This document shows, piece after piece, positions 32,451 through 62,504 of a DNA stretch of 64,000 bases. A program made the position numbers and the translations under genes. Each line of letters begins with the position of its first letter. The stretch's first letter is position 1. A model generated the notes under the pieces. It ran no database searches. It worked only from the letters and a program-made list of their open reading frames with translations, and was not told the origin of the DNA. The stretch spans positions 3,983-67,982 of the forward strand of contig PHCF01000006.1 in the NCBI GenBank assembly GCA_002842145.1, written 5' to 3'. Source of the DNA: Betaproteobacteria bacterium HGW-Betaproteobacteria-6. Its GTDB lineage: Bacteria; Pseudomonadota; Gammaproteobacteria; Burkholderiales; Rhodocyclaceae.

Positions 32451-34385
32451 TCATGCGGCCGGGGCGCTTGCTTCTTCATCACCGGGAAAGGTCTCGGCTG
32501 AATGGCGCGCTGCCTTGATCATGAAACGACCCGGGTCGAGGGCGTCAACGAGGTCGCGTTCGAGCGGCAGCGGCTCGCCTTCGATCTGGCTGAGCAGCAG
32601 GTCGGCCATCAGCGCCGACCACACGATGCCGCGCGCGCCAAAGCCCTGGACGCACCACAGGCCGGGCTGGCGCGGGATGTTGTGGAGGCGCGTGTTGGGC
32701 GTCGCCGCCATGGCATCGGGCACGGCGCCGACGATGGGCAGGCGGTCCGGCGACATCGGGCGGAAGCCGACGCGGCCGTGCAATGCTGCCGGGTCGAGGC
32801 CGGCGGCGAAGTCGGGCAGGGTCAGACGGAGGCGGGCGAGGTTGTCGCGGTGGTCGGATTCGCGCTCGGCTGATTCGTCGTCCTCGTAGGAGAGCGAGGC
32901 GCCGATCAACTGCGTACCGTCGAGGTCCGGGATGGCGTAGCCGACCTGAAAGAGCACGGCCTTGAGCGGTGTGCCGTTGGTTGCCGGCAGATGGCTGACC
33001 TGGCCGCGACCCGAGCGTTGCGGCAGCCAGGCGAACTGTTCGAAACGTGGGGCGGCGGCGCCGCTGGCCATGATCAGGACAGGCGCCTCGGCCAGGATGT
33101 TGCCGGCCGCATCAAGCGCCTGCCATTCCGTTTTTGGCCGAAAAATCCGGTTGACCGTAGCATTGAAGCGCGTCGTGATTTTTTCTGGAAAAGCAGCCAG
33201 CGCGGCCTGGCAAACCGATGGCGGTTGCACCCAGCCGCCATTCGGGAACCACCAGCCGCCGATATTCACCGTTTGCCCGAGCAGCAGGCTGGCTTCTTCC
33301 CGGTCGACGAACCGGAGAAGGTCGGGCGGCAAGCCGAGTTGTTCGACGGTGCGCCTTTGCTGTGCTTCGTGCTCCGGTTCGCGCGCCAGATGCAGCACGC
33401 CGCAGGGCGACCAGCGGGCATCGGGCAGGCCGGCGAGCAGGGCGCGGGTGGCGAGGAAGCCGGCGCGGGTCAGGCGTGACAGGCGGTTGTCGTCGGCGCT
33501 GGGTAGCGGGCGCAGCATGCCGGCCAGGTTGCTCGAGGCTCCGGTGGCCGGGGCGGCAGCCTGCTCAAGGACGGTGACCTGCCAGCCGGCGGCGGCCAGC
33601 GCGTAGGCCGTGGCGCTGCCGGCAATCCCGGCGCCGATGACGATCGCCCGGCGATCGGTCGGCGCGAGGTGGCGATCCGGTCGGCGCGAACGGAAACGGC
33701 CGACCAGCATCTGCCGTTTGCCGACCGGTCCCGGGCGTTTTTCGACATCGAACTCGGCGTCTTTCAACGCCTGGCGGACATGGCCGGCGACTGTCCACGT
33801 GGCCAGCGTGGCGCCGGGTGCAGTCAGGCGGGCGAGGCCCTTGCAGAATTGCGGCGACCACAGTTCCGGATTCTTTTGCGGGGAAAAGCCGTCGAGGAAG
33901 AAGGCATCGACCGAGGCGTCGATGGCTCGCAACTCGGTCGAAGCGTCCCCGAAAAGCAGGGTCAGGATGACCTGGCCGCCATCGAGATGCAGGCGGTGCA
34001 TGCCCGGCACCAGCGGCGGCCAGTGTCTTTGCAGTTCCGCTGCCAGTTCGCCGAATTCCGGCCAGGCCTGCTGGCAGGTGGCGAGGTCCGCTACGGTCAA
34101 CGGGAATTTTTCGCAAGAAATGAAATGCAGACGCCGGCAGCGGTGCGGGTCGTCGCGCCAGGCCTGCCAGGCGGCGAGAAAATTCAGCCCGGTGCCGAAG
34201 CCGGTTTCAAGGATGACGAAGCGGTCGCGACCCTGCCACCGTTGCGGCAACCCATTGCCGCCAAGAAAGACATGCTGCGCCTGCATCGGGCCGCCCAGGG
34301 CGGAGTGATAGACGTCGTCAAAAGCGGCTGAGTAGGGCGTGCCGTAGGCGACAAATTCAATCGTGGCGGGCTGCAGCTTGTCCAC
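32451..34385 (-). CDS. mnmC: Bifunctional tRNA (mnm5s2U34) methyltransferase / FAD-dependent cmnm5s2U34 oxidoreductase MnmC
   Basis: N-terminal SAM-MTase part ([33 protein letters not shown]) and C-terminal DAO domain ([18 protein letters not shown]). GTG 34385 overlaps the stop of the upstream ORF (TAGTG). Confidence 0.85.
33133..33163 (+). repeat. Dispersed motif copy: TTTGGCCgaaaaatCCGGTTGACCGTAGcat (inside mnmC, antisense)
   Basis: Seen directly. Shares TTTGGCC and CCGGTTGACCGTAG with the other copies. Confidence 0.7.
34091..34114 (-). repeat. Dispersed motif copy, reverse orientation: (rc) GCGAAAAATTCCCGTTGACCGTAG (inside mnmC, sense)
   Basis: Seen directly. Encodes EKFPLTVA. Confidence 0.55.
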
Positions 34386-34879
34386 TAGTGGAGGCGCGAA
34401 AGGTGCTCGCTGCGTGGTGTCGTGCTGGCTGTTGCCGGTATGTCCTCGAGTGCCAGATTCCATTGCGCATGGTCGGCGCCGGCGCGCAGCATGGTGCACA
34501 GGGTTTGCAGCAGATCGGCGTTGACGGCGAGCTGAAAACTTCGCTCCCGGCCTTCGCGGAAAGTCAGGTTGAACGTGCCGTCGCCCAGGGTGTCCACCTT
34601 GAGTTCGCTGCTGAGCAGAGGCGTCGAACCTAGCGGGAAAGTCGCATTTTCTTCAGAAAAGGCCTGGTCGAAATTGACTGCCTCGTCGGTCGGGGTTTCG
34701 CCAACAATCGGCATTGCAGCCGTTTGCTTCCCGGCCAGCCGGGACAGATGCGGCCACAACTCGCGCAGGAAACGCCGGGTCAGCCAGATCCGGTATTCCT
34801 CGTCATCCTGCGACGAGATGCGCAGAAGCAGGCGATCCTGCACTTGGTCGCAAGCAACTTGAAGCTGACGAATTTGCAT
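34385..34879 (-). CDS. Hypothetical protein (164 aa), translationally coupled to mnmC
   Basis: Coding-like composition, no recognisable motifs. The stop overlaps the mnmC GTG by 1 nt. Confidence 0.5.
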
Positions 34880-34967
34880 CAGAAATTACCGGAAAAACCC
34901 GATGGGTGAGCGAGCGCAGCCAAGACAAGGTGCCGTGCAACGCCGTATTGGCAAGCGCAGCCACGCA

Positions 34968-36473: not shown

Positions 36474-36692
36474 GAAGAATCCTTGGGAAAATGGGCGGCG
36501 CTGTGAGCAAATGCCAAGAACCTTTGATTTTCGCCGATTTTGGCTATTGGGGACAAGGTTGGTGCAGCTTGTTTCGGCCGGATTTTGGGTCGGCCAGCCG
36601 ATTGAAACCGTCACCCAGACCGGGAGCGCCAGCAGCAAATGACCAGGGTGTGCCGCGAGCGCCTGCCGTCCATCAACTGGCGGGGCAGTCAA

Positions 36693-37037
36693 TCAGGCAT
36701 AGACATTGACCACGCTGCCGACGCCGCTGGCCCTGGATGCTGAGTCGATAGCCGCCGCGGTGTCGCTCGGGCTGTTGAGAGTCTCAGCTTGATTGGAACG
36801 AGGCCTGCTGGCGTCCTGTTTTGACAGCTCGGCAGATTCGATGCGCTGTTTTATTTCGCTGATCTTTCCAGCGATTTCAGCGATCTTGGCCTTCCCCTCG
36901 GTGGTTTTGCACGATGGACAGTTTTCCCAACTGGCCAGCTCCGCCTCATATCTCGCGAGTTGTGCGCTGAGCGTGACAGCAGAATTACCTGCTGAGGCCT
37001 GAGCCGGTGGCAAGGAACTGGAGATGGCACTCAGCAT
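36693..37037 (-). CDS. Hypothetical small protein with a predicted coiled-coil (FlxA-like?)
   Basis: ORF only. LARYEAELASWENCPSCKTTEGKAKIAEIAGKISEIKQRIE. No strong family call possible. Confidence 0.4.
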   Translation of the reverse strand: MLSAISSSLPPAQASAGNSAVTLSAQLARYEAELASWENCPSCKTTEGKAKIAEIAGKISEIKQRIESAELSKQDASRPRSNQAETLNSPSDTAAAIDSASRASGVGSVVNVYA

Positions 37038-37043
37038 GGGTTT

Positions 37044-37706: not shown

Positions 37707-37825
37707 GATTCACTCCTGTTTCACTTGGTTGGCCACAAGGCCAGTCATTGCCTTGCGTACGGCGGACTGGTCGTGCCAGGACGCCGGTGGGGCCAGCGAT
37801 CAGCGCCAGGCCCCACCTGGGGCGA

Positions 37826-39719: not shown

Positions 39720-40282
39720 TAGATAGAGAAGCGGGGTTTCGCGCCAGGGAAGATCGCCTGAAGGATTTGCTGGTGCGCGGTCTTGCCGGCGATAACGCCG
39801 CCTATCAGGTGTTTTTGACGGAATTGAGTGCGCATCTGCGCGCCTTCCTGCGAAGACGCCTTGTCAGCTTGCCAGACGAAGTCGAGGATCTCGTGCAGGA
39901 AACGCTCCTGGCCGTACATAACCAGCGCCATACCTACGATAGCGCTCAGCCGTTGTCGGCTTGGGTGCAGGCCATTGCACGCTACAAGCTGGTCGATCTG
40001 TTCCGCCGGCGGGCCGGGCATGAGATGTTGAACGATCCGCTGGATGAGGAAATGGAACTGTTCACCACGGCGGATTCCGAGGCTGCCGAGGCGCGACGGG
40101 ATCTGAACAAGTTGCTGGCTGACCTGCCCGATCAGCTCCGCCTGCCGATCATGCACACCAAGCTGGAAGGATTGTCGGTAAAGGAAACGGCGGAAATGAC
40201 CGGCATGTCGGAGTCAGCCGTCAAGGTTGGCGTCCATCGAGGCCTGAAGGCGCTCGCTGCGAAGATACGAGGCATCACATGA
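39710..40282 (+). CDS. sigF: ECF sigma-70 family factor, SigF-like
   Basis: Region 2 ([18 protein letters not shown]) and region 4 ([25 protein letters not shown]). Followed by an overlapping NrsF gene. The real start may be GTG 39773 (AAGGA 7 nt upstream). Confidence 0.85.
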
Positions 40283-40920
40283 AAACTGAAGATCTGATCA
40301 CCATGCTGGCAACCGGTGCCGGTCCCGTCGAGCAAGCAACTGCGACGCAGCGCTACGCGCTTGCCATCGGCTGGGGCGCGGCGGGCGCCACCCTGCTCAT
40401 GTTCATGCTCCTGCAGGTTCGTAACGATCTCGGTCAAGCGCTCCTGCTGCCGATGTTCTGGGTCAAGGTCGGGTTTGTCGCCAGTCTTGCCGCCGGTAGC
40501 CTGTTTGCTGCGCTCCGCCTGTCGCGGCCGGGGGCAGAAACCAGGTGGGTGCCGGTCGTGCTCAGCCTACCCGTCCTGGGTATCTGGGCCGTCGCCGCCT
40601 TCACGCTGATCGAGGCAGAGCCGATTGAGCGCTCGAAGCTATTTTTTGGCGACACCTGGAAATCCTGTCCGCTCCTGATTGCCTTGCTCTCGGTCCCGGT
40701 GTTTGTCGCCGTGCTGCGGTCCATGAAGGATTTGGCGCCAACCCGGCCGAGGCTGGCCGGTTTCGCCGCCGGTCTGCTTTCCGGCTCGGTTGCGGCCGTC
40801 GTCTATAGCCTGCATTGCCCTGAAATGGGGGCGCCATTCGTTGGCTTCTGGTACCTCCTGGGAACGCTGATTCCGGCCGGTGTCGGTGCCTTGCTCGGAA
40901 ACTCGGTTCTGCGCTGGTAG
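40279..40920 (+). CDS. nrsF: NrsF-family (DUF1109) membrane anti-sigma factor
   Basis: [19 protein letters not shown]... followed by six TM helices. ATGA overlap with sigF. Confidence 0.8.
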
Positions 40921-41015
40921 CGGTCGTGTAGCGCCGTATTGGCGGGCGCAAAACCAGGATGCGATTTGGCGGTGGGCTTGGCATGCCCGCCCCGGGCCTA
41001 AGCGGGATTTCATTT

Positions 41016-41045
41016 TTTGGCCTTTTTTCCGGTTGACCGTGGGAT
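41016..41045 (+). repeat. Dispersed motif copy: TTTGGCCTTTTTTCCGGTTGACCGTGGGAT (intergenic)
   Basis: 23-mer TTTTTTCCGGTTGACCGTGGGAT is identical to the copies at 42707 and 51134. Confidence 0.85.
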
Positions 41046-41134
41046 AGACGTCAGCCGCCAGGCGGAGCCCAAAACCCCAAACAAGGGAAATCGCCAATAC
41101 GACGGATTCCGCACGCCAATGCAATAATCCGGTT

Positions 41135-42073
41135 ATGGAAATCCTCATTGAAATCATTCTCAAAGCCGGGCGTTCGGCCGTCGAGCTGGCCTTCTTCGTT
41201 CTGCTCCCCGTCATGGTCGTCATGCTCTCGCTCATGCGCCTGCTCGAAGCGCGCGGTGTGCTCGATTGGGTCGTCGCTCGTCTAGCTCCGCTACTCAAGC
41301 CGGTCGGGCTGACCGGGCTGGGCGTCTTCGCTGCCCTGCAGATCAACTTCGTGAGCTTCGCCGCCCCGATGGCGACGCTGACCATGATGGAACAGCGTGG
41401 CGCTTCCGACCGCCACATCGCCGCTACGCTGGCCATGGTTTTCGCCATGTCGCAAGCCAACGCAGCGTTGCCGATGATGACCATGGGCCTCGATCTGGCG
41501 CTGACCCTGACCTACTCGCTGATCGGCGGCTTGACCGCGGCGGCGGCGACTTATTACCTGTTCGGCCGGGCGTTGTCGAACAGTGAAAGCCGGCTCGACG
41601 AAACCCTGCATCATCCGGTCGCCGAGAGCGCCAAGGGGGTGCTCGATGTCATCAACCGGGCCGGGGCCGAGGCATTCAAGCTGTCCGTCGGGGCCATTCC
41701 GATGCTTGTCCTGTCGCTGGTCGTCGTTACCGCGCTGCGCAGCGGCGGCGCCATCGATGCGCTGACCCGCCTGCTGGAACCTGCGCTGACTGCGGCTTCC
41801 ATCGACAGCGCGCTGATCCTGCCGACGCTGACCAAATACATGGCCGGCGGCACGGCGATGATGGGGGTCATGGACGAAATGCGCAAAGCCGGCCAGATCA
41901 GCGTCGAACTGCTCAACGCCAGCGCCGGCTTCCTGATTTCCCCTTTCGATCTGCCCGGCGTCGCCGTGCTGATTTCCGCCGGGCCGCGCATCGCGGCGGT
42001 GTGGAAACCGGCGGCCCTCGGTGCTTGTATCGGTATCGCTGTACGCACTGTCGGACATATACTCGCGGTATGA
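41135..42073 (+). CDS. Nucleoside-recognition (Gate) domain membrane protein
   Basis: MEILIEIILKAGRSAVELAFFVLLPVMVVMLSLMRLLEARGVLDWVV... with multiple TM helices. Resembles the SpmA/SpmB-type Gate domain. Confidence 0.65.
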   Translation: MEILIEIILKAGRSAVELAFFVLLPVMVVMLSLMRLLEARGVLDWVVARLAPLLKPVGLTGLGVFAALQINFVSFAAPMATLTMMEQRGASDRHIAATLAMVFAMSQANAALPMMTMGLDLALTLTYSLIGGLTAAAATYYLFGRALSNSESRLDETLHHPVAESAKGVLDVINRAGAEAFKLSVGAIPMLVLSLVVVTALRSGGAIDALTRLLEPALTAASIDSALILPTLTKYMAGGTAMMGVMDEMRKAGQISVELLNASAGFLISPFDLPGVAVLISAGPRIAAVWKPAALGACIGIAVRTVGHILAV

Positions 42074-42423: not shown

Positions 42424-42750
42424 TCAGTCGGCTGCGTAATGAATGGCCAGCCAGATCGTCGGCTGGTCGGGGTCGGTCCATTCGACGCGGTGCCGACGAT
42501 GCGGGGCGATGTCGATGCAATCGCCAGGGGTGAGCTGAACAGGTTCCGGCGAGTCTTCAAAACGCAGCCTTGCCGCGCCCTGCAGAACCACCACCCATTC
42601 GCCCTCGGCCTGGTCGTACCAGAAATCCGCCGGGCTGCACTGGCCAGTCGACACGATGCGTTCTATACGCAGGCCGGGGCGCTGGAGCAGATTTGAAAAT
42701 TGCTCGTTTTTTCCGGTTGACCGTGGGATTGCGGCAAACAGGTTATCCAT
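42424..42750 (-). CDS. Cupin-domain protein
   Basis: WVVVLQGAARLRFED....LTPGDCIDIAPHRRHRVEWT is a cupin_2-type barrel motif. Confidence 0.75.
   Translation of the reverse strand: MDNLFAAIPRSTGKNEQFSNLLQRPGLRIERIVSTGQCSPADFWYDQAEGEWVVVLQGAARLRFEDSPEPVQLTPGDCIDIAPHRRHRVEWTDPDQPTIWLAIHYAAD
42707..42729 (+). repeat. Dispersed motif copy: TTTTTTCCGGTTGACCGTGGGAT (5' end of cupin gene, antisense)
   Basis: Identical 23-mer. Encodes ..AIPRSTGKN.. on the minus strand. Confidence 0.85.
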
Positions 42751-43941: not shown

Positions 43942-45021
43942 TTAGACGCCTTGTTTCAGGCTGGCCTCGATGAACGGATCGAGGTCGCCGTCGAGCACGC
44001 CTTGCGTGTTGCCGGTTTCGTGGTTGGTGCGCAGGTCCTTGATGCGGCTCTGGTCGAGCACGTAGGAGCGGATCTGGTGGCCCCAGCCGATGTCGGACTT
44101 GGCATCTTCGAGCTTCTGCTGTTCGGCCTGCTGCTTGCGCAACTCGAACTCGTAGATGCGGGCGCGCAGCATCTGCCAGGCTTCGTCGCGGTTGCGGTGC
44201 TGCGAACGGTCGTTCTGGCACTGTACGACGATGCCGGTCGGGACGTGGGTCAGACGCACGGCCGAGTCGGTCTTGTTGATGTGCTGACCGCCGGCACCGG
44301 AGGCGCGGTAGGTGTCGGTACGCACGTCGGCAGGGTTGATGTTGATCTCGATCGAGTCGTCGACTTCCGGAAAGACGAAAACGCTGGTGAACGAGGTGTG
44401 GCGACGGGCGGCAGAGTCGAACGGCGATTTGCGGACCAGGCGATGAATGCCGGTTTCGGTGCGTAGCGTGCCGTAGGCGTAGTCGCCGGTGAATTTGACG
44501 GTGGCGCTCTTCAGGCCGGCGACGTCGCCTTCCGACTCTTCCATGACCTCAACCGTGAAGCCCTTTTTCTCGCCGTACTTCAGGTACATGCGCAGCAGCA
44601 TCGAGGCCCAGTCTTGGGCTTCAGTACCGCCCGCACCAGCCTGAATTTCCAGGAAGCAGGGCATCGGATCGGACGGGTTGTTGAACATGCGGCGGAATTC
44701 GAGGGCGGCCACCTTCGTTTCCAGTTCGGCGTTGTCGGCTTCGACGGCAAGCAGGGTGTCTTCATCGCCGTCTTCCTTGCCCATGTCGAACAGTTCGCGG
44801 CCATCGTCGAGGCCGGCCGCAACTTCTTCCAGCACCAGCACGATATCTTCCAGCGATTTCTTTTCGCGCCCGAGTTCCTGGGCACGCTTGGCGTCGTCCC
44901 AGATTTTCGGGTCTTCCATCTCCTGCGTGAGGAGGGTCAGGCGCTCGCGTTTCTGATCGTAGTCAAAGATACCTCCGCAGCTCGGCGGCGCGCTGCGCCA
45001 GATCATGTGTTCGGCTTCCAT
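43942..45021 (-). CDS. prfB: Peptide chain release factor 2
   Basis: DYDQKRERL...; SPF tripeptide in VRKSPFD; GGQ motif in [19 protein letters not shown]. Coordinates run from the ATG of MEAEH..., which is continuous with the body of the protein. Confidence 0.9.
44962..44968 (-). other. Canonical prfB +1 programmed-frameshift cassette (GGAGG TAT CTT TGA C)
   Basis: Minus strand reads ...GAGCTGCGGAGGTATCTTTGACTACGAT. It has the SD-like GGAGG, the slippery CTT and the in-frame TGA followed by C. Confidence 0.7.
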
Positions 45022-45223
45022 GGTCGGGCGTCCAGATACTTGAAAACCGGACATTATAAAGGTTTAAGACGGGGCTTCGGGCATCGCTTTGGTGCCAATA
45101 TTTTTGCTGTCGAATGGCATAAATGCTTGCTGGGCGGGCGTAGAATGGGCTTGCTGCGTCGCAACAAACAACAGGAGGGAAGTCTCCTCCGCGGGCGGCG
45201 CGCTTTTCAGGGCTGGACCGAAA

Positions 45224-48200
45224 ATGAACAAGATGCTGACCATCGACGGTAACGAAGCCGTCGCCAACGTGGCTTACCGCGTTTCCGAAGTGATCGCGAT
45301 TTACCCGATCACCCCATCGTCCGGCATGGGCGAGCTGTCCGACGAATGGGCCGCACAAGGCAAAACCAATGTCTGGGATTGCGTCCCGCGCGTCGTCGAG
45401 CTGCAGTCCGAAGGCGGCGCCGCCGGCACGGTCCACGGGGCCCTGCAGGCCGGCTCGCTGGCGACGACCTTCACGGCGTCGCAGGGCCTGCTGCTCATGA
45501 TCCCGAACATGTACAAGATCGCCGGCGAACTGACGCCGACGGTGTTCCACGTTGCTGCCCGCACCGTCGCGACGCACGCGCTGTCGATCTTTGGCGACCA
45601 TTCGGACGTGATGGCGACGCGCGGGACGGGGTTTGCGCTACTGGCGTCGAATTCGGTCCAGGAAGCGCAGGACATGGCGGCCATCGCCTCGGCGGCGACG
45701 CTGGCCGGGCGTTTGCCGGTGCTGCATTTTTTTGATGGCTTCAGAACCTCGCATGAAGTGTCGAAGATTACCGGTATCGACGACGACGTCCTGCGCAAGA
45801 TGATCCCGCAGGCGCTGATTGCAGCCCATCGCCACCGCGCCCTGTCGCCGGAACACCCGGTGTTGCGCGGCAGTTCGCAGAATCCCGATGTCTTCTTCCA
45901 GGCCCGCGAGGCCCAGAACCCGTGGTTCGACGCTTTCCCTGGCGTCGTTCAGCAGGCCATGGACCACTACGGTGAACTGACCGGGCGGCAATACAAGCTG
46001 TTTGACTACGTCGGCGCGCCCGATGCCGAGCGCGTCATCATCATGATGGGCTCGGGAGCGGAAACGGCGCAGGAAACGGTCGAGCATCTGAACCGTCAAG
46101 GTGAGAAGGTCGGCCTGCTCAAGGTTCGCCTCTACCGGCCGTGGGCGCCGGATGCGCTGCTCGCAGCCTTGCCGGCGACGACCCAGGCTCTCGCCGTACT
46201 CGACCGCTGCAAGGAGCCGGGCGCCGACGGCGAGCCGTTGTTCAAGGATGCCATGGTGGCGCTGGCTGAAAACGCGAGCAGCGAATCGCCGCGCTTCGCC
46301 ACGCAGCCCAAGGTGATCGGCGGGCGCTACGGGTTGGCTTCCAAGGAATTCACGCCAGCCATGGTTTTTGCCATTTTTTCCCGGTTGACCGTAGGAATGG
46401 GCAACAAACGCTTCACCATCGGCATCAACGATGATGTGACGCACCTTTCGCTGCCCACCGACCCGACGTTCCGTACCGATGCCGTGCGCGAAACCTTCGG
46501 CGCCGTGTTCTACGGCCTGGGTTCGGACGGCACCGTTTCGGCCAACAAGAATTCGATCAAGATCATCGGCGACGAAACCGATCTGCATGCCCAGGGCTAT
46601 TTCGTTTACGACTCCAAGAAGTCGGGGGCGATGACGGTCTCGCACCTGCGTTTCGGCTCGCAGCCGATTCGTGCCACCTACCTGACCGGCGAGGGCGACG
46701 CCAGGTTCATCGCCTGCCATCAGCCGCTCTTCCTCGAAACGCACGACCTGCTGGCCCACGCCGCGTCGGGTGCCGTTTTCCTGCTCAACACGCCGGTCCC
46801 GGCCGACAAGGTGTGGGCCACGCTGCCGGCCACCATGCAGCAGCAGATGATCGCCAAACGCATCCGTTTTCACGTCATCGACGCCTACCAGGTCGCCCTC
46901 GAAGCCGACATGGGGCGGCGCATCAATACGGTCATGCAGACCTGCTTTTTCGCCATTTCCGGGATTCTTCCTCAGGACGAAGCTATCTCCGCGATCAAGC
47001 ATGCCGTCGAAAAGACCTACGGTCGGAAGGGGCGGCGCATTGCCGAACTGAACTACAAGGCCATCGACAAGACCCTGGTCTGTCTGCATGAAGTGCCGGT
47101 GCCGGACGAGTTTGCCGCATCCGACATCCGCATCTCCGAGCGCGCCGTTCAGCCGGCATCCGAATTCGTCCGCAAGCTGACGCTGCCGATGATCGCAGGC
47201 AAGGGCGACAGCCTGCCGGTCTCGCTGTTTCCGGCCGATGGCACCTTCCCGACCGGCACCGCCCAATACGAAAAGCGCAATTTGGCGCTGCAAATTCCGG
47301 TCCTTGAAACGGATCTGTGCACCCAGTGCGGCAAGTGTGTTTTCGTCTGCCCGCATTCCGCCATTCGCGCCAAGGCTTTTCCGCCCGAGCAGGTTGTCGA
47401 AGCGCCGGCAACATTCAAGACCATGGCCATCCGCAGCAAGGATTACCCGGCCGGTTGGCGGATGAGCTACCAGGTGGCGCCCGAGGATTGCACCGGTTGT
47501 ACCCTGTGCGTTGAGGTCTGCCCGATTCGCGATAAATCCAATGTTTCGCGCAAGGCGCTCAACATGGCCGAACAGGCGCCGTTGCGGGGTCCGGAAGCCG
47601 AAAACTGGGACTTTTTCCTCAAGCTGCCCGATTACGACCGCACGGTGGCCAAGCGCAACACCATTCCCGGCTCCATGCTGCTGCCACCGATGTTCGAGTT
47701 TTCCGGCGCCTGCGTCGGTTGTGGCGAAACGCCCTACATCCGGCTGGCGACACAGCTTTTCGGCGACCGCATGCTGGTCGCCAACGCGACCGGTTGCTCG
47801 TCGATTTACGGCGGCAATCTGCCGACTACGCCTTACACCACCGATGCCAACGGGCGCGGTCCGGCCTGGAGCAACTCGCTGTTCGAGGACAACGCCGAGT
47901 TCGGTCTCGGCATGCGCGTCGGTACCAACAAGCTGGTCGATGCGGCACGCGGGCAGTTGCGCGCCATGGCGCTGGAAATCGGCGACGCCCAGGTTCAGGC
48001 GCTGCTGCACGCCGACCAGAGCACGGAAGCCGGCATTCACGAACAACGCGAGCGGGTTGCCGCGCTGCTCGTCAAACTCTCGGCCATTGGTTCGCCAGCC
48101 GCCGATCAGCTGGCCGCCGTTGCCGAGTACCTCATCCGGCGCAGTGTGTGGATCATCGGCGGCGACGGCTGGGCCTACGACATCGGTTTCGGTGGTCTCG

Positions 48201-50011: not shown

Positions 50012-50072
50012 TTGTGGTGACTGGGGCCGATAAATTCAATATATGGTTCAAGCAAAGCACAAGGTGACCAAC

Positions 50073-50975
50073 ATGAAATCGCTAAAATCAAAATCCCTGA
50101 CTGCACTGTCCGTTGCTCTGCTGACGAGTGTCGTCTTTGCAAATGCAGCGCAAGCAGCTACGTGTACTCTGGATAGCGTTACGATTACCAGCATAGAGAC
50201 CAGTCCGTTAGATGGTTCCGGGGTGGTTTTTTTGGGTTCGCAGCCTGCTACCGGTTGTGTCGGAACGTATAAGATCAATGGGGTAAATGGTGATGGATCT
50301 CTTTCGACCGACGAGAATATCGGCCGGATTGAAGATGGCCTTTTAAACGGCGAGCAGAAAGGTTCCACTACGGTTTTAGTCGGCAATGAGTTTCTGACCA
50401 CTTCGGCAGATCAAATGCTTGATCTTGATGGCGACGGTGTTGCAACTGACCCGGGTTGGATCAAGCTGGCCAAGAGTAATTATTCAGGCGGAGCGTGGTC
50501 TGCTATGGAGTACTCGACGAATCCACTTGATGCGCTTGGAAACTCTCTGATCGAGCAGGTTCTGCGGGTAGCCTTCAGTTGTTCCAATACGGGCTGTACT
50601 GAAGGTTCCTGGGAAATTGAAACTACTACGGACATCATTTCGAAAGTTCAGGCTGTGCTGGGCAGAAATGCCTTCGATCATCTGGCCTTCGTTCTTCACT
50701 CCGGGCAGGATGGATTCGCAGTCTACGATTTCAATTTCAATATTCTTGGCCAAGGGCTACCGGGGTTCGATTTTGTGACCCCTTATTCCTTCACCGGCGA
50801 GTGGAATACGGATGATTTCACGAACGATCAGGGAGCGGCTCAAACCATTTCGTACATTTCGGTTTGGGCACGGGATCCTCAGCCCTCGAGCGACGTTCCT
50901 GAACCGGCCAGTCTTGCGCTACTTGGCTTGGGACTGCTTGGTGTTGCAGCAATGCGGTGCCGGAAAACTAAATAA
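50073..50975 (+). CDS. PEP-CTERM sorting-domain secreted protein
   Basis: Signal peptide MKSLKSKSLTALSVALLTSVVFANAAQA. C-terminal VPEPASLALLGLGLLGVAAMRCRKTK. AT-richer than the flanks. Confidence 0.8.
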   Translation: MKSLKSKSLTALSVALLTSVVFANAAQAATCTLDSVTITSIETSPLDGSGVVFLGSQPATGCVGTYKINGVNGDGSLSTDENIGRIEDGLLNGEQKGSTTVLVGNEFLTTSADQMLDLDGDGVATDPGWIKLAKSNYSGGAWSAMEYSTNPLDALGNSLIEQVLRVAFSCSNTGCTEGSWEIETTTDIISKVQAVLGRNAFDHLAFVLHSGQDGFAVYDFNFNILGQGLPGFDFVTPYSFTGEWNTDDFTNDQGAAQTISYISVWARDPQPSSDVPEPASLALLGLGLLGVAAMRCRKTK

Positions 50976-50995: not shown

Positions 50996-51028
50996 CAGGG
51001 GCGCCTTAGGGCGCCTCTTTCATTTTTT
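50996..51028 (+). terminator. Rho-independent terminator after the PEP-CTERM gene
   Basis: Stem AGGGGCGCC/GGCGCCTCT with loop TTAG, followed by TTCATTTTTT. Confidence 0.6.
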
Positions 51029-51125
51029 ATCTTCGCTTACCCTGTTGTTGATCAAATGTAGTGGGCAGAACTGAATTGCTCGCCATCGCTTTTTACGATG
51101 TTGATTCGGGCAGTGCTGTTGCGAT

Positions 51126-51156
51126 TTTGGCCATTTTTTCCGGTTGACCGTGGGAT
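51126..51156 (+). repeat. Dispersed motif copy: TTTGGCCATTTTTTCCGGTTGACCGTGGGAT (between convergent PEP-CTERM gene and recJ)
   Basis: Identical 23-mer plus the TTTGGCC left arm. Confidence 0.85.
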
Positions 51157-51181
51157 TGGTGCCATCCCCCTCGGTTAACGC

Positions 51182-52870
51182 CTATTCCAAATGCTCGACC
51201 ATCAACTGCGGGCTTTCGACGCCCATGTATTCGTTGATGGTCAGCCGGTAGGCGAGGCGGGCGCGGTTGCCGGGCTGGGTGCTGAAGTTGAACTGGATGG
51301 CGTCGATGCGGGTGTCGCCCTTGCGCAGGCGCAGCTTGAGGTGTTTTTCCTTGAGCACGCGTTGCTGTTCGACCTCGAAATCGTCCATGAACAGCGGCGC
51401 CGGGAAGCCCTGGCCCCAGATTTCGTTTTCCAGCAGACGGGCGGTGGCCAACGAAATGTAGCCGCCTTCGAGGTTGCCGTCGGTTTCCAGGGTGCGGGTC
51501 AGGTCGGCCGGGGCGAGCAGTTCGCCGGCGACTTCGGCAAACAGCGATTTGAATTTTTCGAAGTTTTCCGCGTTGACCGTGGCACCGGCCGCCATGGCGT
51601 GGCCGCCGAAACGGATGAGCAGGCCGGGGGCGCGTTTGGCGACGAGGTCGAGGGCGTCGCGCAGGTGCAGGCCGGGGATCGAGCGGCCGGAGCCTTTGAC
51701 GATCCCGCCTTCGCCGGGGGCGAAGGCGAAGACCGGGCGGTGCAGCTTGTCCTTGATGCGCGAGGCGAGGATGCCGACGACGCCTTCGTGCCAGCTTTCG
51801 TCGAAGAGGGCGATGCCGGGCGACGCCTCGTTGGCGTCGAGCGAGTCGAGCAGGGCCAGCGCCTGTTCCTGCATGCCGGATTCGATCTCGCGGCGTTCGC
51901 GGTTCAGGGTGTCGAGTTCCTGGGCGATCTGCAGGGCGCGGCTGGCGTCGTCGGTGAGCAGGCATTCGACGCCTAGGCGCATGTCAGCCAGGCGGCCGGC
52001 GGCGTTGAGGCGGGGGCCGAGGATGAAGCCGAGATCCATCGCCGTCGCTTTTTTCGCATCGCGGCCAGCAGCCTTGAACAGGGCGGCGATGCCGGGTTGC
52101 ATCTGGCCGGCACGCATGCGCTTCAAACCCTGACTGACGAGGATACGGTTGTTGCGGTCGAGCTTGACGACGTCGGCCACGGTGCCCAGCGCGACGAGGT
52201 CGAGCAGGGTGGCGAAATTGGGTTCCGGGCGTTTGGCAAAATAGCCGCGTTCGCGCAGTTCGGCGCGCAGGGCGAGCATGACGTAGAACATGACGCCGAC
52301 GCCGGCGATGCATTTGGACGGAAAGTCGCAGCCGGGCTGGTTGGGATTGACGATGCAATCGGCCTCGGGCAGCGTTTCTGCGGGTAAATGGTGGTCGGTG
52401 ATCAGCGTCGCGATGCCGTGCTGCTGGGCGCGGGCGACGCCTTCGAGCGAGGCGATGCCGTTGTCGACGGTGATGATGAGGTCGGGCGATTGCTGGGCGG
52501 CGACATCGACGATTTCCGGCGACAACCCGTAGCCGAGCTTGAAGCGGTCGGGGAGCAGGAAGTTGACGTCGGCGCCGAGCATTTTCAGGGCGCGCATGCC
52601 GACCGCCGTCGCGGTGGCGCCATCGCAGTCGTAGTCGCCGATGATCAGCATCTTCGCGTCGGCCTCGATGGCGTCGGCCAGCAGATGGGCGGCAGCGGTA
52701 GCGTTGGTCAAGGCGGTCGGCGGAATCAGCGATTTCAGCTCGTAATCGAGCTCGGATTTGTCCTTGATGCCGCGCGCGGCATAGAGCCGGGCGAGCAGCG
52801 GGTGCAGGCCCTGCTGTTCGAGTTGCCAGACGACGCGCTGCGGCGCGCTGCGGGTGGTGATGTTGGTCAC
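51182..52870 (-). CDS. recJ: Single-stranded-DNA-specific exonuclease RecJ
   Basis: GTG 52870 (AAGGA upstream, GTGA overlap with the upstream stop). DHH motifs (IIGDYDCDGATA, ITDHH) and DHHA1 (GGHAMAAG). The track ORF N-terminal extension is rejected. Confidence 0.9.
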   Translation of the reverse strand: MTNITTRSAPQRVVWQLEQQGLHPLLARLYAARGIKDKSELDYELKSLIPPTALTNATAAAHLLADAIEADAKMLIIGDYDCDGATATAVGMRALKMLGADVNFLLPDRFKLGYGLSPEIVDVAAQQSPDLIITVDNGIASLEGVARAQQHGIATLITDHHLPAETLPEADCIVNPNQPGCDFPSKCIAGVGVMFYVMLALRAELRERGYFAKRPEPNFATLLDLVALGTVADVVKLDRNNRILVSQGLKRMRAGQMQPGIAALFKAAGRDAKKATAMDLGFILGPRLNAAGRLADMRLGVECLLTDDASRALQIAQELDTLNRERREIESGMQEQALALLDSLDANEASPGIALFDESWHEGVVGILASRIKDKLHRPVFAFAPGEGGIVKGSGRSIPGLHLRDALDLVAKRAPGLLIRFGGHAMAAGATVNAENFEKFKSLFAEVAGELLAPADLTRTLETDGNLEGGYISLATARLLENEIWGQGFPAPLFMDDFEVEQQRVLKEKHLKLRLRKGDTRIDAIQFNFSTQPGNRARLAYRLTINEYMGVESPQLMVEHLE

Positions 52871-53858
52871 GAGGGCGTTCCTTCGGCTAGCTCTTTTGCC
52901 ATGGCTTGCAGCGGACGGCTCTTGCGCCAGAATTTCCAGCGGTCCTTGCCGTGCAGCGTCCAGGTCAGCTGGCCGTAGATGGTCGGGGCGACGATGGTCA
53001 GGCTTTCGATCTTGCCGCCGAGCGCGGCACGGAGCGGGACGAACCAGTCGCGTTCGAGCGCAGCGAAGGCGGCGCGCCAGTCGTCGCTGTTTTCGTAGAG
53101 GACGGGCGGCAGCAGCGTATCGAGCAGGATTAGCGGGGTGTCGTTCGGTGCCGAGTCGGCGAGGAGTGTGCCGAGGCTGGCCGGGCAGGGCGGGGCCTCG
53201 ATTCCGGCGGCGAGGGCGAGGCCGGTCGCCAGCGGATTGTCGCTGCAGACAGCCGAGAATTGCGGTGCCGGCACTTCGGCCAGCGGTCCGCCGCCCCACA
53301 GCCACAGGCTGTTCACGGCCGGCTTGCCTTCGGCCTGACGGCGGGCATTGACCGGATGGCCATGGAGGAACATCTGCACTTCGTTGAGCCAGCGGTTGAG
53401 CGGGCCGTTCTTGTCGGTCAGGTCGCTATCGAGGCGACGGCCGGCAATGGTTGAAATCGGGGCACGGTGGCCACATGGAATCGCCCGATGTCGGCAAATT
53501 CGGAATTGAGGGAAGCCGTGATGGCTTGGGCTTCGTCGAGTTCGAGTTCGAAGGCCCCGGCATCGGCGAGGACGATGCGTTCGTGGTGGAAGCGCAGGTG
53601 CACGGGGTCGGCGCACAGCCAATCGCCCGCCGAAACCTGTCCTTTTCCCGTTTCCCCGAGCAGGCGCAGGGCTCCGAATGGCGCGTCGGTCAGCCCGAAA
53701 TGATCGGCCAGGGTGTGTTCGAAAGCCCGGCGCGGCTGACGCGAAAATTCGGCATGGGCGGCCAGCCATTCGAAGCCGGGAGCGGCCAGTTTCCCGAGGG
53801 TCAGTTGGTCGTTCGGTTCGGGCCAGATCAATTCGGGGACAAGCAGGGTGAGGCGCAC
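52867..53858 (-). pseudogene. Conserved hypothetical gene upstream of recJ, split by a 1-nt frame change (pseudogene or sequencing error)
   Basis: ORF 53418-53858 (MRLTLLVPELIWPEP...) and the coding-like C-terminal part of ORF 52867-53769 join only after a frame shift near the C4 run at about 53462. Span is 992 nt (not a multiple of 3). Confidence 0.5.
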
Positions 53859-57541: not shown

Positions 57542-57612
57542 TTTAATAAGTATTAAATTTGAGGCGATGTGATTAATTTAACATCTGCCATGTCGCAAAC
57601 GGCTCGACATAG

Positions 57613-59640: not shown

Positions 59641-60175
59641 GTGCCTTCCGGCGCCGCCAGGCGCTGATCAGGTAGACGCGCCATGCCGCTTTCATGACGA
59701 AATAGCCAGTCACGGCCAGCCCGCTGGCGAGCAGGATGAGGCCGATGCCGAGCGGCTCTGCGACGCTCAGCATCCACGTTTGCATGGCCTTGCTCCAACC
59801 GATGAAATCCGTTGCGCTGAAGGCCGGGGGCGTTATGAATCCATTGCTTTCGCCGATGGTCAGCCGGCCGATCTGGTAGGCCAGGAGGTAGAGCGGAACG
59901 ATGGTGAACGGATTGGTGTAGAGCGTCATCAAGATGGCCAGTGGCAAATTGACGCGAAAGGCCAGCGCGCAGCCCGCGGCGCCAAGCATTTGCAACGGCC
60001 CGGGGATCAGCCCGCAGAACAAGCCGACGGCCACCGCGCCCGCCGCCGAGTGGCGGTTCAGGTGCCATAGCCGCGGGTGCAACAGAGACGATTCAAAAGG
60101 CTTCAACCAGGGGTTGTTGCGGATCGTCTGGTGATCGGGCAGGTATTTTTTTAGGGTCCGGCGCATGGCGGCCAT
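59630..60175 (-). CDS. DUF2062-family membrane protein
   Basis: [20 protein letters not shown]...[33 protein letters not shown] matches the DUF2062 pattern. ATG 60166 is an alternative start. Confidence 0.7.
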
Positions 60176-60255
60176 TTTAACCCGGCCAGCAAAGTCGGCA
60201 CGCCAGTGCAAACGGCAGTCCTTCTTGCGCACGATAGCCAGTTTATTATGACGGC

Positions 60256-62504
60256 ATGCGCCTGAATATTCTCGCCTTCGCTGCCGGTATCCTTGGCGTA
60301 CAGATGCAGCCGGAGTTGCCCGGCTGGGCGCTGTGGGCGATTGCCGGGGTATTTCTTGTGCTGCCGCGTGCGCGCTGGTCGGGCTGGCCGGTTCGCGGGC
60401 TTGCTCTGTTGGGTTGCCTGGCGCTCGGCGTCGCCTGGGGCGGCTGGCGGGCGGAAAGCCGGCTGGCCGATCAGCTCGGGGCCGAGTGGGAAGGACGCGA
60501 TGTCGAGGTAGTTGGCGTTGTCGCCGGTTTGCCGCAGGATTTCAGCAACGGGATTCGTTTCGAATTTGACGTAAATTCCCGGTTGACCGTGGGATCGGTC
60601 ATTCCGGAGCGGATCATGCTCTCGTGGTACCAGAGCAGGCGCGACGAGGGGCAGCTTGAGCGTCGGATGGTCCGGCCCGGCGAGCGCTGGCGTTTTACGG
60701 TGCGCCTGAAGCGGCCGCACGGCAACGCCAATCCGGGCGGCTTCGATTACGAAGCCTGGCTGCTCGAACGGAATATCCGGGCAAGCGGCTACATCCGCCC
60801 GAATCCACCGCAACGGCTCGACGACATGGTGTGGCGGGCGGACTACGCTTTCGAGCGGATGCGTCACGCCATCCGCGATTCGTTTGCCCGGCTGTTACCG
60901 GAAGCCGACTATCCGTGGGGCGGGGTGCTCGTGGCGCTGGTCATCGGCGACCAGAAGGCGATACAGGGCGATCAGTGGACGACCTTCAACCGGACCGGGA
61001 CGACGCACCTCATGTCGATTTCCGGGCTGCATGTGACGATGGTTGCCGCCTTGTTCGGCTGGCTCGTCAATGTTGGCTGGCGGCGTGTGCCGGTGCTGGC
61101 CCTGCGCCTGCCGGCGCAAAAGGCCGGGCTGCTCGCCGCGGGGCTGGCGGCATTCGCTTATGCCTTGCTGGCCGGCTTTGCCGTGCCTGCCCAGCGCACC
61201 CTTTACATGTTGCTGGTCGCCGCCGCGGCCATGCTTTCGGGGCGCATCGTGGCGCCGAGCCGGATTCTTTGTCTGGCTCTGCTCGTCGTGCTTGTTCTTG
61301 ACCCATGGGCAGTGCTCGCGGCCGGCTTCTGGCTGTCCTTCGGCGCCGTCGGCGCGCTGCTCTATATCGGCTCGGCGACGGTCGGCGAGGCCACCGGATG
61401 GCGGGCAAAATTCCGCGCCTGGGGCGTCGTGCAATGGGCCGCGACTCTCGCTTCGCTACCCGTCCTGCTCCTCGTCTTCCAGCAATTCTCGCTGGTCTCG
61501 CCGCTGGCCAATGCGCTGGCCATTCCGGTCATCAGCTTCATCGTCACGCCGCTCGCCCTGTCCTGACCTGGTGCGCCGGCTGGCCGGTCTGGCTGGCGCC
61601 GGCACCCCCGCTGTGGGCTGTCCTGGCAGCCGGTCTCGGTGCGGCCATCTGCCTGCTGCCTCGCGGGTTGCCCGGGCGCTGGCTGGGGGCGATGCTGTTC
61701 GTGCCTGCCTTGTTCTGGCCGGTCGACAAACCGCCAGAGGGCGAGGCTTGGATCAGTGTGCTCGATGTCGGGCAGGGGCTGGCCAGCGTCATCCGGACGC
61801 GTGAACACACCCTGATTTACGATCCCGGGCCTCTCTACAGCGCCGAATCGGATGCCGGTCAGCGCGTTGTCGTGCCTTATCTGCGCGGGCTCGGGATCGG
61901 TCACGTCGACAAGCTCATGGTGACCCATCGCGATGCCGATCATGCCGGTGGAACGGCTTCGGTGCTGGCGGCACTGACGGTCGATGAAGTCGTTTCGTCG
62001 GTCATCGGGATTGATGGGCAACCGTGCTCCGCCGGCCAGCGCTGGGTTTGGGATGGCGTAGTTTTCGAGGTGCTGCACCCGCTGGCCGAGGCCTATGCCG
62101 CGGCCGGCAAGTCGAATCATCTGTCCTGTGTGTTGCGCGTTGAAGCGGCAGGCCATCGCATGCTGTTGACTTCCGATATCGAGGCACCCGACGAGGTAGC
62201 CCTTGTCCAGCGTTATGCGGACAGGCTGGAGGCCGATGTCCTGCTCATGCCACACCATGGCTCGAAGACGTCGTCTACGCCGGCTTTTCTGCAAGCGGTC
62301 GGGGCGCGTCAGGCGGTCATCCCGGTCGGCTATCGTAACCGCTTCGGGCACCCCAAGGCTGAAGTGCTGGCGCGCCACGAAGGCATGGGTGCCGAAATCT
62401 GGCGAACCGATCGTGATGGTGCCGTGCGCATCCGGCTTGGTGCGGGCGGTGTCGGCTTGTCAGCCTGGCGGCAGGAACATCGTCGCTACTGGCATGGCCG
62501 GTGA
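60256..62504 (+). pseudogene. comEC: ComEC/Rec2 DNA-internalisation channel, interrupted by a frame change near 61565
   Basis: ORF 60256-61566 carries the competence TM domain (TTHLMSISGLHVTM). ORF 61305-62504 carries the metallo-beta-lactamase domain (VLDVGQGLASVIRT...THRDADHAGG...MPHHGS). Span is 2249 nt (not a multiple of 3). Confidence 0.75.
60576..60595 (+). repeat. Dispersed motif copy: TTCCCGGTTGACCGTGGGAT (inside comEC, sense)
   Basis: 17-mer CCGGTTGACCGTGGGAT is identical to the core. Encodes VNSRLTVGS. Confidence 0.8.

What the first reader, a model, noticed from the sequence alone, without database searches (positions are those of the whole stretch)
33133..60595. Over-represented 19-30 nt dispersed motif TTTGGCC-N6-7-CCGGTTGACCGTRGGAT in genes and spacers (uptake-signal-like or protein-binding word)
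An identical 23-mer, TTTTTTCCGGTTGACCGTGGGAT, occurs three times (41023, 42707, 51134). Near-identical copies lie at 33133, 46367 and 60576 on the plus strand and at 34091 on the minus strand. Weaker relatives lie at 4255, 14642 and 51564.

A specific 19-mer is expected far less than once by chance in 64 kb, so the copies are not random.

The copies are not parts of paralogous genes. Two sit in spacers, one of them between convergent genes. Five sit inside unrelated conserved genes: mnmC twice, the cupin gene, PFOR and comEC.

When motif and gene share orientation, the motif is read in one frame: AIFSRLTVG in PFOR, VNSRLTVG in ComEC and EKFPLTVA in MnmC. Frame-constrained occurrence of a fixed word inside ORFs, together with spacer copies, is the pattern known for DNA uptake sequences (Neisseria DUS, Pasteurellaceae USS). 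I know of no such element in this lineage.

Other possibilities are a binding site for a nucleoid or segregation protein, or a strand-oriented architectural sequence, since 6 of the 7 strong copies are on the + strand.

The motif has no hairpin symmetry, so it is not REP-like.
Basis: seen in the sequence. Interest (0 to 1): 0.7.

Follow-up and report, generated by a model that had tools for sequence, protein, structure and literature searches.

The report
Candidate DNA-uptake signal in Azonexaceae genomes
A sharply bounded ~40-base word (an invariant 12-base core preceded by phased T-rich tracts) is scattered hundreds of times through the genomes of Dechloromonas/Azonexus-type bacteria and behaves, by every sequence test I could run, like the DNA uptake signals known so far only from Neisseria and Haemophilus relatives; actual uptake is untested.

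Summary
The 23-mer occurs exactly three times, and the 19-mer (up to 3 mismatches) six times against 0.03 expected. The full element is longer than reported: about 36-40 nt, ATTTCAATTTTGGSC-N-WWWWTT-CCGGTTGACCGT-RGNAWT. It has sharp borders, no hairpin and no Rfam match.

The exact 19-mer hit at least 111 places in at least 15 species-level Azonexaceae/Rhodocyclaceae genomes. Copies that were not selected for occur about once per 8.7 kb.

About 60% of copies are intergenic. They favour gene 3' ends and convergent spacers, in either orientation. About a fifth lie inside genes.

In PFOR, MnmC and RecG the copy replaces ordinary codons with no or almost no length change. In MnmG, relatives show no-element, core-only and full states, so it is not a pasted mobile unit.

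The core is kept more strictly than its flanks between species, and the 5' half never occurs without the core. Strand bias is weak and vanishes over long range, so it is not KOPS/Chi-like.

Best reading (about 0.5): a third-lineage DNA uptake signal, built like the Pasteurellaceae USS. Main rival: a site for an unknown chromosomal DNA-binding protein. I found no published description.

The parts
33124..33163 (+). Element copy inside mnmC, antisense to the gene. Sequence CATTCCGTTTTTGGCCGAAAAATCCGGTTGACCGTAGCAT; encoded peptide [13 protein letters not shown].
   Evidence: nhmmer E = 6e-6. The core is exact. The alignment to E. coli MnmC shows only a 1-residue gap in a variable stretch, so this is not a 40-nt insertion.
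34090..34127 (-). Weak copy, sense in mnmC (CATTTCATTTCTTGCGAAAAATTCCCGTTGACCGT). It encodes [13 protein letters not shown].
   Evidence: nhmmer E = 0.014. The peptide is the conserved MnmC motif, HFISFEKFPLT in E. coli. The match is therefore partly dictated by the protein.
41006..41046 (+). Full copy in the spacer between NrsF (40279-40920, +) and the Gate-domain gene (41135-42073, +).
   Evidence: nhmmer E = 4e-11. Contains the exact 23-mer. A GC-rich hairpin lies just upstream.
42690..42731 (+). Full-core copy, antisense in the N-terminal tail of the cupin gene (42424-42750, -). Encoded peptide IPRSTGKNEQFSNL.
   Evidence: nhmmer E = 1.6e-10. Contains the exact 23-mer. The orthologous copy is kept in L017, a relative about 90% identical in DNA.
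46362..46397 (+). Copy, sense inside PFOR (45089-48850, +). Encoded peptide MVFAIFSRLTVGM.
   Evidence: nhmmer E = 9e-4. The core is exact. It aligns without a gap to Moorella PFOR (MVKAVFDNLAATTP) and with a 1-residue gap to the second PFOR structure, 7plm.
51122..51158 (+). Copy in the convergent spacer between the PEP-CTERM gene (50043-50975, +) and recJ (51182-53305, -).
   Evidence: nhmmer E = 1.6e-11. Contains the exact 23-mer. The predicted terminator of the upstream gene lies separately at 50997-51018.
60558..60597 (+). Copy, sense inside comEC (DUF4131 region). Encoded peptide FDVNSRLTVGS.
   Evidence: nhmmer E = 1.5e-8. The core is exact.
4230..4264 (+). Degenerate relative with core CAGGTTGACCGT, antisense in the Fe-ADH gene.
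   Evidence: nhmmer E = 1.4. The core has 1 mismatch. It may be a decayed or nascent copy, or chance.
51547..51582 (+). Degenerate relative (ATTTGAATTTTTCGAAGTTTTCCGCGTTGACCGTGG) inside recJ, antisense.
   Evidence: nhmmer E = 0.16.
60256..62504 (+). comEC, the DNA-import channel gene. It carries one copy of the element and shows that the organism encodes part of the DNA-import machinery.
   Evidence: Pfam finds DUF4131 and Competence and Lactamase_B. The gene is an intact 772-aa ORF in the public record of the same contig.

Best explanation
The element is a lineage-specific 'self-DNA' word of the Azonexaceae (the Dechloromonas/Azonexus/Ferribacterium group). It most likely works as a DNA uptake signal, as the USS of Pasteurellaceae and the DUS of Neisseriaceae do.

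Proposed mechanism (inferred):
1. A surface or periplasmic component of the type IV pilus/competence machinery recognises the 12-bp core CCGGTTGACCGT.
2. The adjacent T tracts, spaced about 11 bp apart, make the DNA easy to bend or kink during passage.
3. Fragments that carry the word are taken up preferentially and recombine into the chromosome.
4. Over time, mutations toward the word are therefore driven to accumulate wherever they are tolerated: 3' spacers, convergent spacers and poorly conserved stretches of proteins.

Shown: over-representation, the anatomy of the element, its family-wide spread, its placement, its in-situ origin inside genes, and stronger conservation of the core.

Inferred: uptake bias, the existence of a receptor, and molecular drive.
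For: 1. Abundance. The counts in the window are far above chance. There are 98 non-ascertained copies in 848 kb of related genomes, about 1 per 8.7 kb.
2. Spread. The exact 19-mer occurs in at least 111 stretches of at least 15 species-level genomes, all in this clade and dispersed over many contigs and across a 3.46-Mb chromosome.
3. Anatomy. The borders are sharp. A nearly invariant 12-nt core is preceded by two to three W tracts phased about 11 bp apart. [quoted passage not shown]
4. Hierarchy. The 5' half occurs without a core only 3 times, against 117 times with one. The core occurs 78 times out of 251 with a degenerate 5' half.
5. In-gene copies are not insertions of the unit. PFOR and RecG align with no length change and MnmC with a 1-residue gap. 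In the MnmG linker, relatives show a no-element state, a core-only state and a full state, differing by only 2-6 codons. One orthologous coding-sequence pair has the element in one species and unrelated sequence of almost the same length in the other. [quoted passage not shown]
6. Constraint. Between species the core is 96% identical, against about 80% in the 10 nt immediately upstream.
7. Placement. Copies favour permissive sites in both orientations, with 47 in convergent spacers and 9 in divergent ones. There is no long-range strand polarity.
8. Competence gene. An intact comEC is present.
9. Core versus accessory DNA. Copies are absent from the accessory catabolic half of the window and frequent in the housekeeping half.
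Against: - No experiment shows competence or uptake bias in this group, and I found no report of natural transformation for it.
- Density is about 5-8 times lower than the USS/DUS figures of 0.8-0.9 per kb.
- The motif is longer and richer in information than known uptake signals: about 52 bits over about 40 nt, a value inflated by how the copies were found.
- Inverted pairs are rare (4-5 of 212 copies). They have T tracts upstream of the stem, so they cannot act as intrinsic terminators. In known DUES about half of all copies lie in terminators.
- No ComP-like receptor was found in the roughly 0.9 Mb held. That sample is far too small to be informative.
- The gene calls behind the location statistics come from a crude caller of my own.
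Confidence: 0.5

Rival explanations
1. The element is a high-affinity binding site for an unknown chromosomal DNA-binding protein, for example a nucleoid-associated, condensin-loading or topoisomerase-positioning factor. It would be kept by direct selection at hundreds of places, and the phased T tracts would provide a bend next to a specific core.
For: The motif is long, asymmetric and information-rich. The core is under constraint between species. W/S tracts with an 11-bp period suit wrapped or bent DNA. Copies avoid divergent promoter regions.
Against: Known architectural sites number tens per genome, or are 8-mers with strong polarity (my own knowledge). Selection at each of about 400-600 sites would have to build a 36-nt word by point mutation inside genes such as PFOR, RecG and MnmG, which is hard without a directional drive. 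There is no polarity. No candidate protein is known.
Confidence: 0.25
2. The element is a non-autonomous mobile element (MITE-, REP- or REPIN-like) copied and pasted by a transposase acting in trans, and tolerated mainly at gene 3' ends.
For: The borders are sharp. The length (about 40 nt) and copy number are REP-like. Copies are enriched at 3' ends and in convergent spacers. A few head-to-head pairs exist. In MnmG the region carrying the element is 5-15 residues longer than in relatives that lack it.
Against: - The element has no terminal inverted repeats and no hairpin; its folding z-score is about +0.7.
- In-gene copies show no or minimal length change in PFOR, RecG and MnmC.
- The MnmG length differences are 2-6 codons with intermediate states, not 36-40 nt.
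- Conservation depends on position, with the core much better kept than the flanks, instead of uniform decay.
- A 40-nt unit would break reading frames.
- BLAST found no real copy in the plasmid collection (no hits) or the phage collection (two chance-level partial hits).
Confidence: 0.07
3. The element is a replication-oriented polar sequence of the KOPS or Chi type, or another strand-oriented architectural signal.
For: In the window, 6 of 7 strong copies are on the G-rich + strand. There is a weak overall association with local GC skew: 124 of 212 copies, p = 0.016.
Against: Co-orientation is only 58-64%. Copies in different 8-kb bins of the same contig agree in strand 27 times and disagree 24 times. 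The motif is about five times longer than KOPS or Chi. Its T-rich composition alone could explain a mild leading-strand preference (inference).
Confidence: 0.03
4. The element is a transcription signal: either a promoter (UP-like T tracts plus the -35-like TTGACC) or part of intrinsic terminators.
For: TTGACC preceded by A/T tracts resembles an UP element plus a -35 hexamer (seen in the sequence). About half of the copies that follow a gene have a strong hairpin in the 40 nt upstream, so the T-rich 5' half could serve as a U tract.
Against: Nothing is conserved where a -10 hexamer should lie. The promoter scan found 0 sites in 11 kb around four copies. There is no orientation preference relative to flanking genes in tandem spacers (27 against 30), and copies are rarest in divergent spacers. 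The element itself has no stem. Many copies lie inside genes in either orientation.
Confidence: 0.05

Closest known systems
[quoted passage not shown]
   Same: - Same plan: a short, strictly kept core with phased W/T tracts on one side only (PMC3458573).
- The core matters more than the flanks.
- Hundreds of copies in both orientations.
- Present in coding regions without insertion of the unit, in preferred reading frames and at poorly conserved residues (PMC2817400).
- Shared by a family of species.
   Different: - The sequence is unrelated.
- The core is longer (12-14 nt against 9) and the flanks are more sequence-specific (ATTTCAATTTTGGSC).
- Density is about 0.12-0.16 per kb against 0.8 per kb.
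- Inverted terminator pairs are rare.
- The host is an environmental betaproteobacterial group.
- Uptake has not been tested.
Neisseriaceae DNA uptake sequence (DUS, AT-GCCGTCTGAA and its dialects; receptor: the minor pilin ComP)
   Same: - A family-wide over-represented word within the Betaproteobacteria.
- Variation in the 3' tail (GTGGGAT, GTAGCAA, GTGGAA) is reminiscent of dialects.
- Intergenic enrichment near gene 3' ends.
- Copies in genome-maintenance genes such as recG and comEC, and one next to recJ. This is anecdotal.
   Different: - DUS is a simple 10-12-mer without phased tracts, at about 0.9 per kb.
- DUS mostly occurs in inverted pairs that form terminators.
- No ComP homologue was identified here (uninformative sample).
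REP/BIME and REPIN elements of Enterobacteria and Pseudomonas
   Same: Similar length (about 35-40 nt), similar copy number, and a similar preference for 3' and convergent intergenic spacers.
   Different: REPs are imperfect palindromes mobilised by RAYT transposases and are extragenic. This element has no hairpin, occurs inside genes by substitution and is mostly solitary.

Membership tests
DNA uptake enhancing sequences (USS/DUS) | Preferential uptake of DNA carrying the motif by competent cells | not testable with these tools
   This needs uptake or transformation competition assays. No report of competence in this group was found.
DNA uptake enhancing sequences (USS/DUS) | Genomic over-representation by orders of magnitude, with copies dispersed over the genome | tested here: met
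   Observed 6 against 0.03 expected, 3 against 0, and 9 against 0.35. About 1 copy per 8.7 kb in non-ascertained DNA. Copies are spread over many contigs and across a 3.46-Mb chromosome.
DNA uptake enhancing sequences (USS/DUS) | Density near 0.8-0.9 copies per kb | tested here: not met
   Density here is about 0.12-0.16 per kb, against 0.80 and 0.89 per kb for USS and DUS (PMC2817400).
DNA uptake enhancing sequences (USS/DUS) | The same word is shared by related species of one family | tested here: met
   At least 15 species-level genomes, all Azonexaceae/Rhodocyclaceae-type. Orthologous copies are kept between species.
DNA uptake enhancing sequences (USS/DUS) | Copies arise by mutation and recombination, not by insertion of a unit | tested here: met
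   No or minimal length change in PFOR, MnmC and RecG. Graded states in MnmG. A coding-sequence pair of almost equal length with and without the element. Only a handful of genes were examined.
DNA uptake enhancing sequences (USS/DUS) | Both orientations, with no replication polarity | tested here: met
   58-64% co-orientation with local GC skew. 27 concordant against 24 discordant long-range pairs.
DNA uptake enhancing sequences (USS/DUS) | Many copies form inverted pairs that act as terminators | tested here: not met
   Only 4-5 close inverted pairs among 212 copies, and their T tracts lie on the wrong side of the stem.
DNA uptake enhancing sequences (USS/DUS) | A dedicated receptor (ComP, or the predicted ComN/PpdA) is present | tested here: inconclusive
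   tblastn with ComP against the roughly 0.9 Mb held found only generic pseudopilin N-termini. Whole genomes were not searchable.
Pasteurellaceae USS (architecture only) | A core flanked on one side by helically phased T-rich tracts | tested here: met
   Logos: W tracts centred about 11 bp apart, 5' of the core.
REP / REPIN | An imperfect palindrome that forms a hairpin | tested here: not met
   Minimum free energy -1.6 to -3.0 kcal/mol, z-score +0.6 to +0.8, on both strands.
MITE | Terminal inverted repeats, target-site duplication, and presence/absence as a clean insertion | tested here: not met
   There is no conserved flank or terminal inverted repeat. In-gene copies are not 36-40-nt insertions.
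KOPS / Chi-type polar motifs | Strong co-orientation with replication | tested here: not met
Sigma-70 promoter | A -10 hexamer 16-18 bp after the -35 hexamer, and orientation toward a downstream gene | tested here: not met
   No conservation at positions +29 to +34 of the logo. 0 promoter-like sites. No orientation preference.

The most novel reading that the evidence does not exclude
The Azonexaceae, abundant denitrifying and phosphate-accumulating bacteria of wastewater, aquifers and sediments, have evolved a DNA uptake signal independently. It would be the third lineage known after the Neisseriaceae and Pasteurellaceae. Its bipartite layout of about 40 bp (a 12-bp core plus phased T tracts) converges on the Pasteurellacean USS plan. 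That would imply self-biased natural transformation, and an undiscovered sequence-specific DNA receptor, in an environmental clade.
Probability: 0.45. Interest if true: 0.85.

Novelty: new variant of a known kind. Interest (0 to 1): 0.72.

Why it matters
Sequence-specific DNA uptake has been studied in only two families, both host-associated (bioRxiv 10.1101/2025.10.24.684340). A third, independent case in free-living environmental bacteria would matter in several ways.

- It would allow a test of whether the layout of a core plus phased T tracts is a general physical solution for pulling DNA through the secretin.
- It would give a new system in which to look for an uptake receptor.
- It would bear on how genes, including resistance and catabolic genes, move within wastewater and groundwater communities.
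- Practically, adding the 40-mer to constructs might make Dechloromonas or Azonexus strains easier to transform.
- The word is also a near-diagnostic marker for assigning metagenomic contigs to this clade.

Even if the function turns out to be protein binding and not uptake, a conserved 40-bp site present hundreds of times per genome would point to an unknown chromosomal system.

Tried and rejected
- Hairpin or REP structure: folding of both strands and of the AAAA-spacer variant is no better than shuffles.
- Known RNA family: no Rfam hit in the whole window.
- Plasmid or phage origin: BLAST of the consensus gave nothing in 72,556 plasmids and only two chance-level partial hits in 50,697 phages. 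The 16-mer core pattern hit 26 IMG/VR contigs, of which about 8 hits have the T-rich upstream half. These look like prophages or phages of the same hosts.
- Replication polarity: tested with local GC skew and with same-contig concordance, and rejected.
- Promoter: no -10 hexamer, no scan hits, no orientation preference.
- Terminator: the element has no stem. Upstream hairpins are found only when a gene ends there, so they are that gene's own terminator.
- Inverted-pair terminators as in DUS: rare.
- ComP-like receptor: tblastn on the held loci found nothing useful.
- Apparent comEC frameshift as evidence of lost competence: rejected. The window lacks 70 nt that are present in public assemblies of the same contig, where comEC is an intact 772-aa gene.
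- Literature: no paper links uptake sequences or this sequence to Dechloromonas, Rhodocyclaceae or Rhodocyclales.

Limits of this work:
- The location statistics rest on my own crude codon-usage gene caller, which over-extends 5' ends.

Full report
**1. The observation**

The 23-mer TTTTTTCCGGTTGACCGTGGGAT occurs exactly at 41023, 42707 and 51134; no shuffle gave any match. The 19-mer with up to 3 mismatches occurs six times, all on the + strand, against 0.03 expected. The 12-mer core CCGGTTGACCGT with up to 1 mismatch occurs nine times against 0.35 expected.

It also identifies the gene on the far side of the convergent spacer as RecJ.

**2. Anatomy of the element**

I aligned the 110 exact-19-mer instances fetched from other genomes. 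The conserved block is longer than reported and has sharp edges. Information content rises from about 0 to about 1 bit at position -20 and falls back to about 0 at position +21, and the flanks share nothing.

A profile search found 98 further copies that had not been selected for the 19-mer. Their consensus is ATTTCAATTTTGGSC-N-WWWWTT-CCGGTTGACCGT-RGNAWT, about 52 bits over about 40 nt. That value is inflated by how the copies were found.

- The 12-nt core is 89-98% invariant per position.
- The 3' tail varies (GTGGGAT, GTAGCAA, GTGGAA).
- The spacer is either T-rich or AAAA, but always W.
- The W tracts are centred about 11 bp apart.

The element has no hairpin on either strand and no Rfam match.

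The 5' half is subordinate to the core. It occurs without a core 3 times, against 117 times with one. The core occurs with a degenerate 5' half 78 times out of 251.

**3. Distribution among genomes**

All hits were in at least 15 Azonexus, Ferribacterium, Dechloromonas or Rhodocyclaceae-type genomes. Roughly four chance hits would be expected in the whole collection, by my own estimate from the 19-mer's length.

Hits are spread over many contigs and over a 3.46-Mb chromosome. Non-ascertained copies occur about once per 8.7 kb. The window has 7-8 copies in 64 kb. Together these suggest several hundred copies per genome, which is an inference.

The window matches contig JAEMOG010000046 of GCA_017973855.1.

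**4. Placement**

I used a crude codon-usage gene caller of my own.

- 126 of 212 copies are intergenic.
- Of the intergenic copies, 47 lie in convergent spacers, 27 and 30 in tandem spacers in the two orientations, and only 9 in divergent spacers. They lie close to stop codons.
- About a fifth of all copies are robustly inside genes.
- Several 'edge' or 5'-proximal calls are artefacts. The element itself contains TTG and GTG start codons and TGA stop codons.

Hairpins upstream of copies appear only where a gene ends there. Close inverted pairs are rare, 4-5 in all.

**5. How the copies arise**

- In PFOR the element-encoded MVFAIFSRLTVGM aligns without a gap to Moorella MVKAVFDNLAATTP, and with a 1-residue gap to the second PFOR structure, 7plm.
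- In RecG, EFLFGQFPGLTVG aligns without a gap to EELKLALPELNVG. The element sits on a pre-existing L-x-V-G motif.
- In MnmC the antisense copy lies in a variable stretch with a 1-residue gap.
- In MnmG the copy lies in a linker whose length varies. Among 120 relatives there is a short state without the element (AGEAQT), core-only states (CGRPENSPEI) and full states (HGQPEFSAKIDM), differing by 2-6 codons.
- One orthologous coding-sequence pair has the element in one species and unrelated sequence of almost the same length in the other.

None of this fits pasting of a 36-40-nt unit. It fits stepwise change in place. Between species the core is 96% identical, against about 80% for the 10 nt immediately upstream.

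**6. Strand**

Co-orientation with the locally G-rich strand is 58% overall (p = 0.016) and 64% where the skew is clear. Copies in different 8-kb bins of the same contig agree in strand 27 times and disagree 24 times. The plus-strand run in the window is therefore local. A mild preference is expected for a T-rich word (inference).

**7. Interpretation**

Four findings point one way:
- the word is family-wide and highly over-represented;
- it has a strict core and looser phased T tracts;
- it occurs in both orientations and accumulates at permissive sites;
- inside genes it is made by substitution.

Together these match the description of DNA uptake signals. [quoted passage not shown] They sit at poorly conserved residues and in preferred reading frames.

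An intact comEC is present. The accessory catabolic half of the window has almost no copies, while the housekeeping half has seven. This fits the known absence of uptake sequences from recently acquired genes, but it is a single window.

I therefore put a DNA uptake signal first, at about 0.5.

Points against:
- density is 5-8 times lower than for USS or DUS;
- the motif is unusually long and information-rich;
- terminator pairs are almost absent;
- neither competence nor a receptor is shown.

**8. Rivals**

- A selected binding site for an unknown chromosomal protein (about 0.25) explains the length and the constraint. It does not explain how hundreds of 36-nt words are built inside genes.
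- A MITE- or REP-like mobile element (about 0.07) is contradicted by the lack of a hairpin or terminal inverted repeats, by the unchanged lengths of host genes, and by position-dependent conservation.
- A polar KOPS/Chi-type signal (about 0.03) fails its defining test.
- A promoter or terminator role (about 0.05) also fails its defining tests.

**9. Novelty**

Full-text searches found no paper linking uptake sequences, or this sequence, to Dechloromonas, Rhodocyclaceae or Rhodocyclales. A survey from October 2025 still treats uptake-enhancing sequences as confined to the Neisseriaceae and Pasteurellaceae.

I class the element as a new variant of a known kind. Membership in that kind is unproven, because the defining feature, preferential uptake, could not be tested.

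**10. Caveats**

- The fetched loci are biased toward exact-19-mer copies. I used the secondary copies wherever an unbiased view was needed.
- Many loci are orthologous to one another, so the counts are not independent.
- Gene calls are approximate.

Noticed in passing
window 61560|61561, 43206|43207 and about 45005: The window lacks 70, 80 and 25 nt that are present in otherwise 99.4-100% identical public assemblies of the same contig (GCA_017973855.1 and JGI/ENA assemblies). The missing pieces are ordinary coding sequence. Their absence makes comEC and a 415-aa hypothetical gene look frameshifted, and fuses the prfB reading frames. In the public record comEC is an intact 772-aa gene.
   Followed up: yes
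window 43942-45054 (-); L139 13744-14881: This is prfB (release factor 2). Public assemblies show a short 38-aa ORF followed by a 325-aa ORF, as expected for the programmed +1 frameshift. The 25-nt gap in the window removes this feature.
   Followed up: partly
L050 5661-5745, L093 600-680, L058 5300-5385: A rare long variant of the element carries 17-20 extra nt (for example ACGCTTCGCGTAGTAAAC) between the T tract and the core. The insert resembles a degenerate second core (CGTAGTAAA against CGTGGGAAT), so it may be a partial tandem duplication.
   Followed up: partly
L053 7814-7895, L107 466-547, L098 2250-2331, L060 5654-5735: Head-to-head pairs of the element overlap at their tails (CCGGTTGACCGTGGGATTGCCACGGTCAACCGG). 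They form a 12-14-bp inverted repeat flanked by T tracts upstream and A tracts downstream, which is the wrong polarity for an intrinsic terminator.
   Followed up: partly
window 34090-34127 (-): The conserved MnmC motif HFIS(F/C)EKFPLT, also present in E. coli, is encoded here by codons that mimic the element. It could be a chance resemblance, or a protein motif whose synonymous sites have drifted toward the word.
   Followed up: partly
window 1-33000: This half holds accessory-type genes and almost no element copies:
- a glycoside hydrolase family 46 (chitosanase-type) gene;
- an OprD porin;
- a PrpF / CoA-transferase / HpcH-lyase / TRAP-transporter catabolic cluster with a LysR regulator;
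- a large hybrid histidine kinase in a lower-GC stretch (0.53-0.54) at about 25-31 kb.
   Followed up: partly
L133 (IMGVR_UViG_3300029891_000082), 830-845 (+) and 9384-9399 (-): A predicted viral contig from the same JGI sample as one assembly of the window's organism carries two element-like copies within 12 kb. It is either a resident prophage that has acquired the word or a mis-called provirus.
   Followed up: no
element copies at gene ends in several loci, for example L071 6327, L049 6080, L104 121: Genes reading into the element from the antisense side often stop at the TGA inside ATTGAAAT. Their last 11 or so codons (..PTVNRKK.PK.K*) are therefore supplied by the element, which can remodel protein C-termini.
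   Followed up: no
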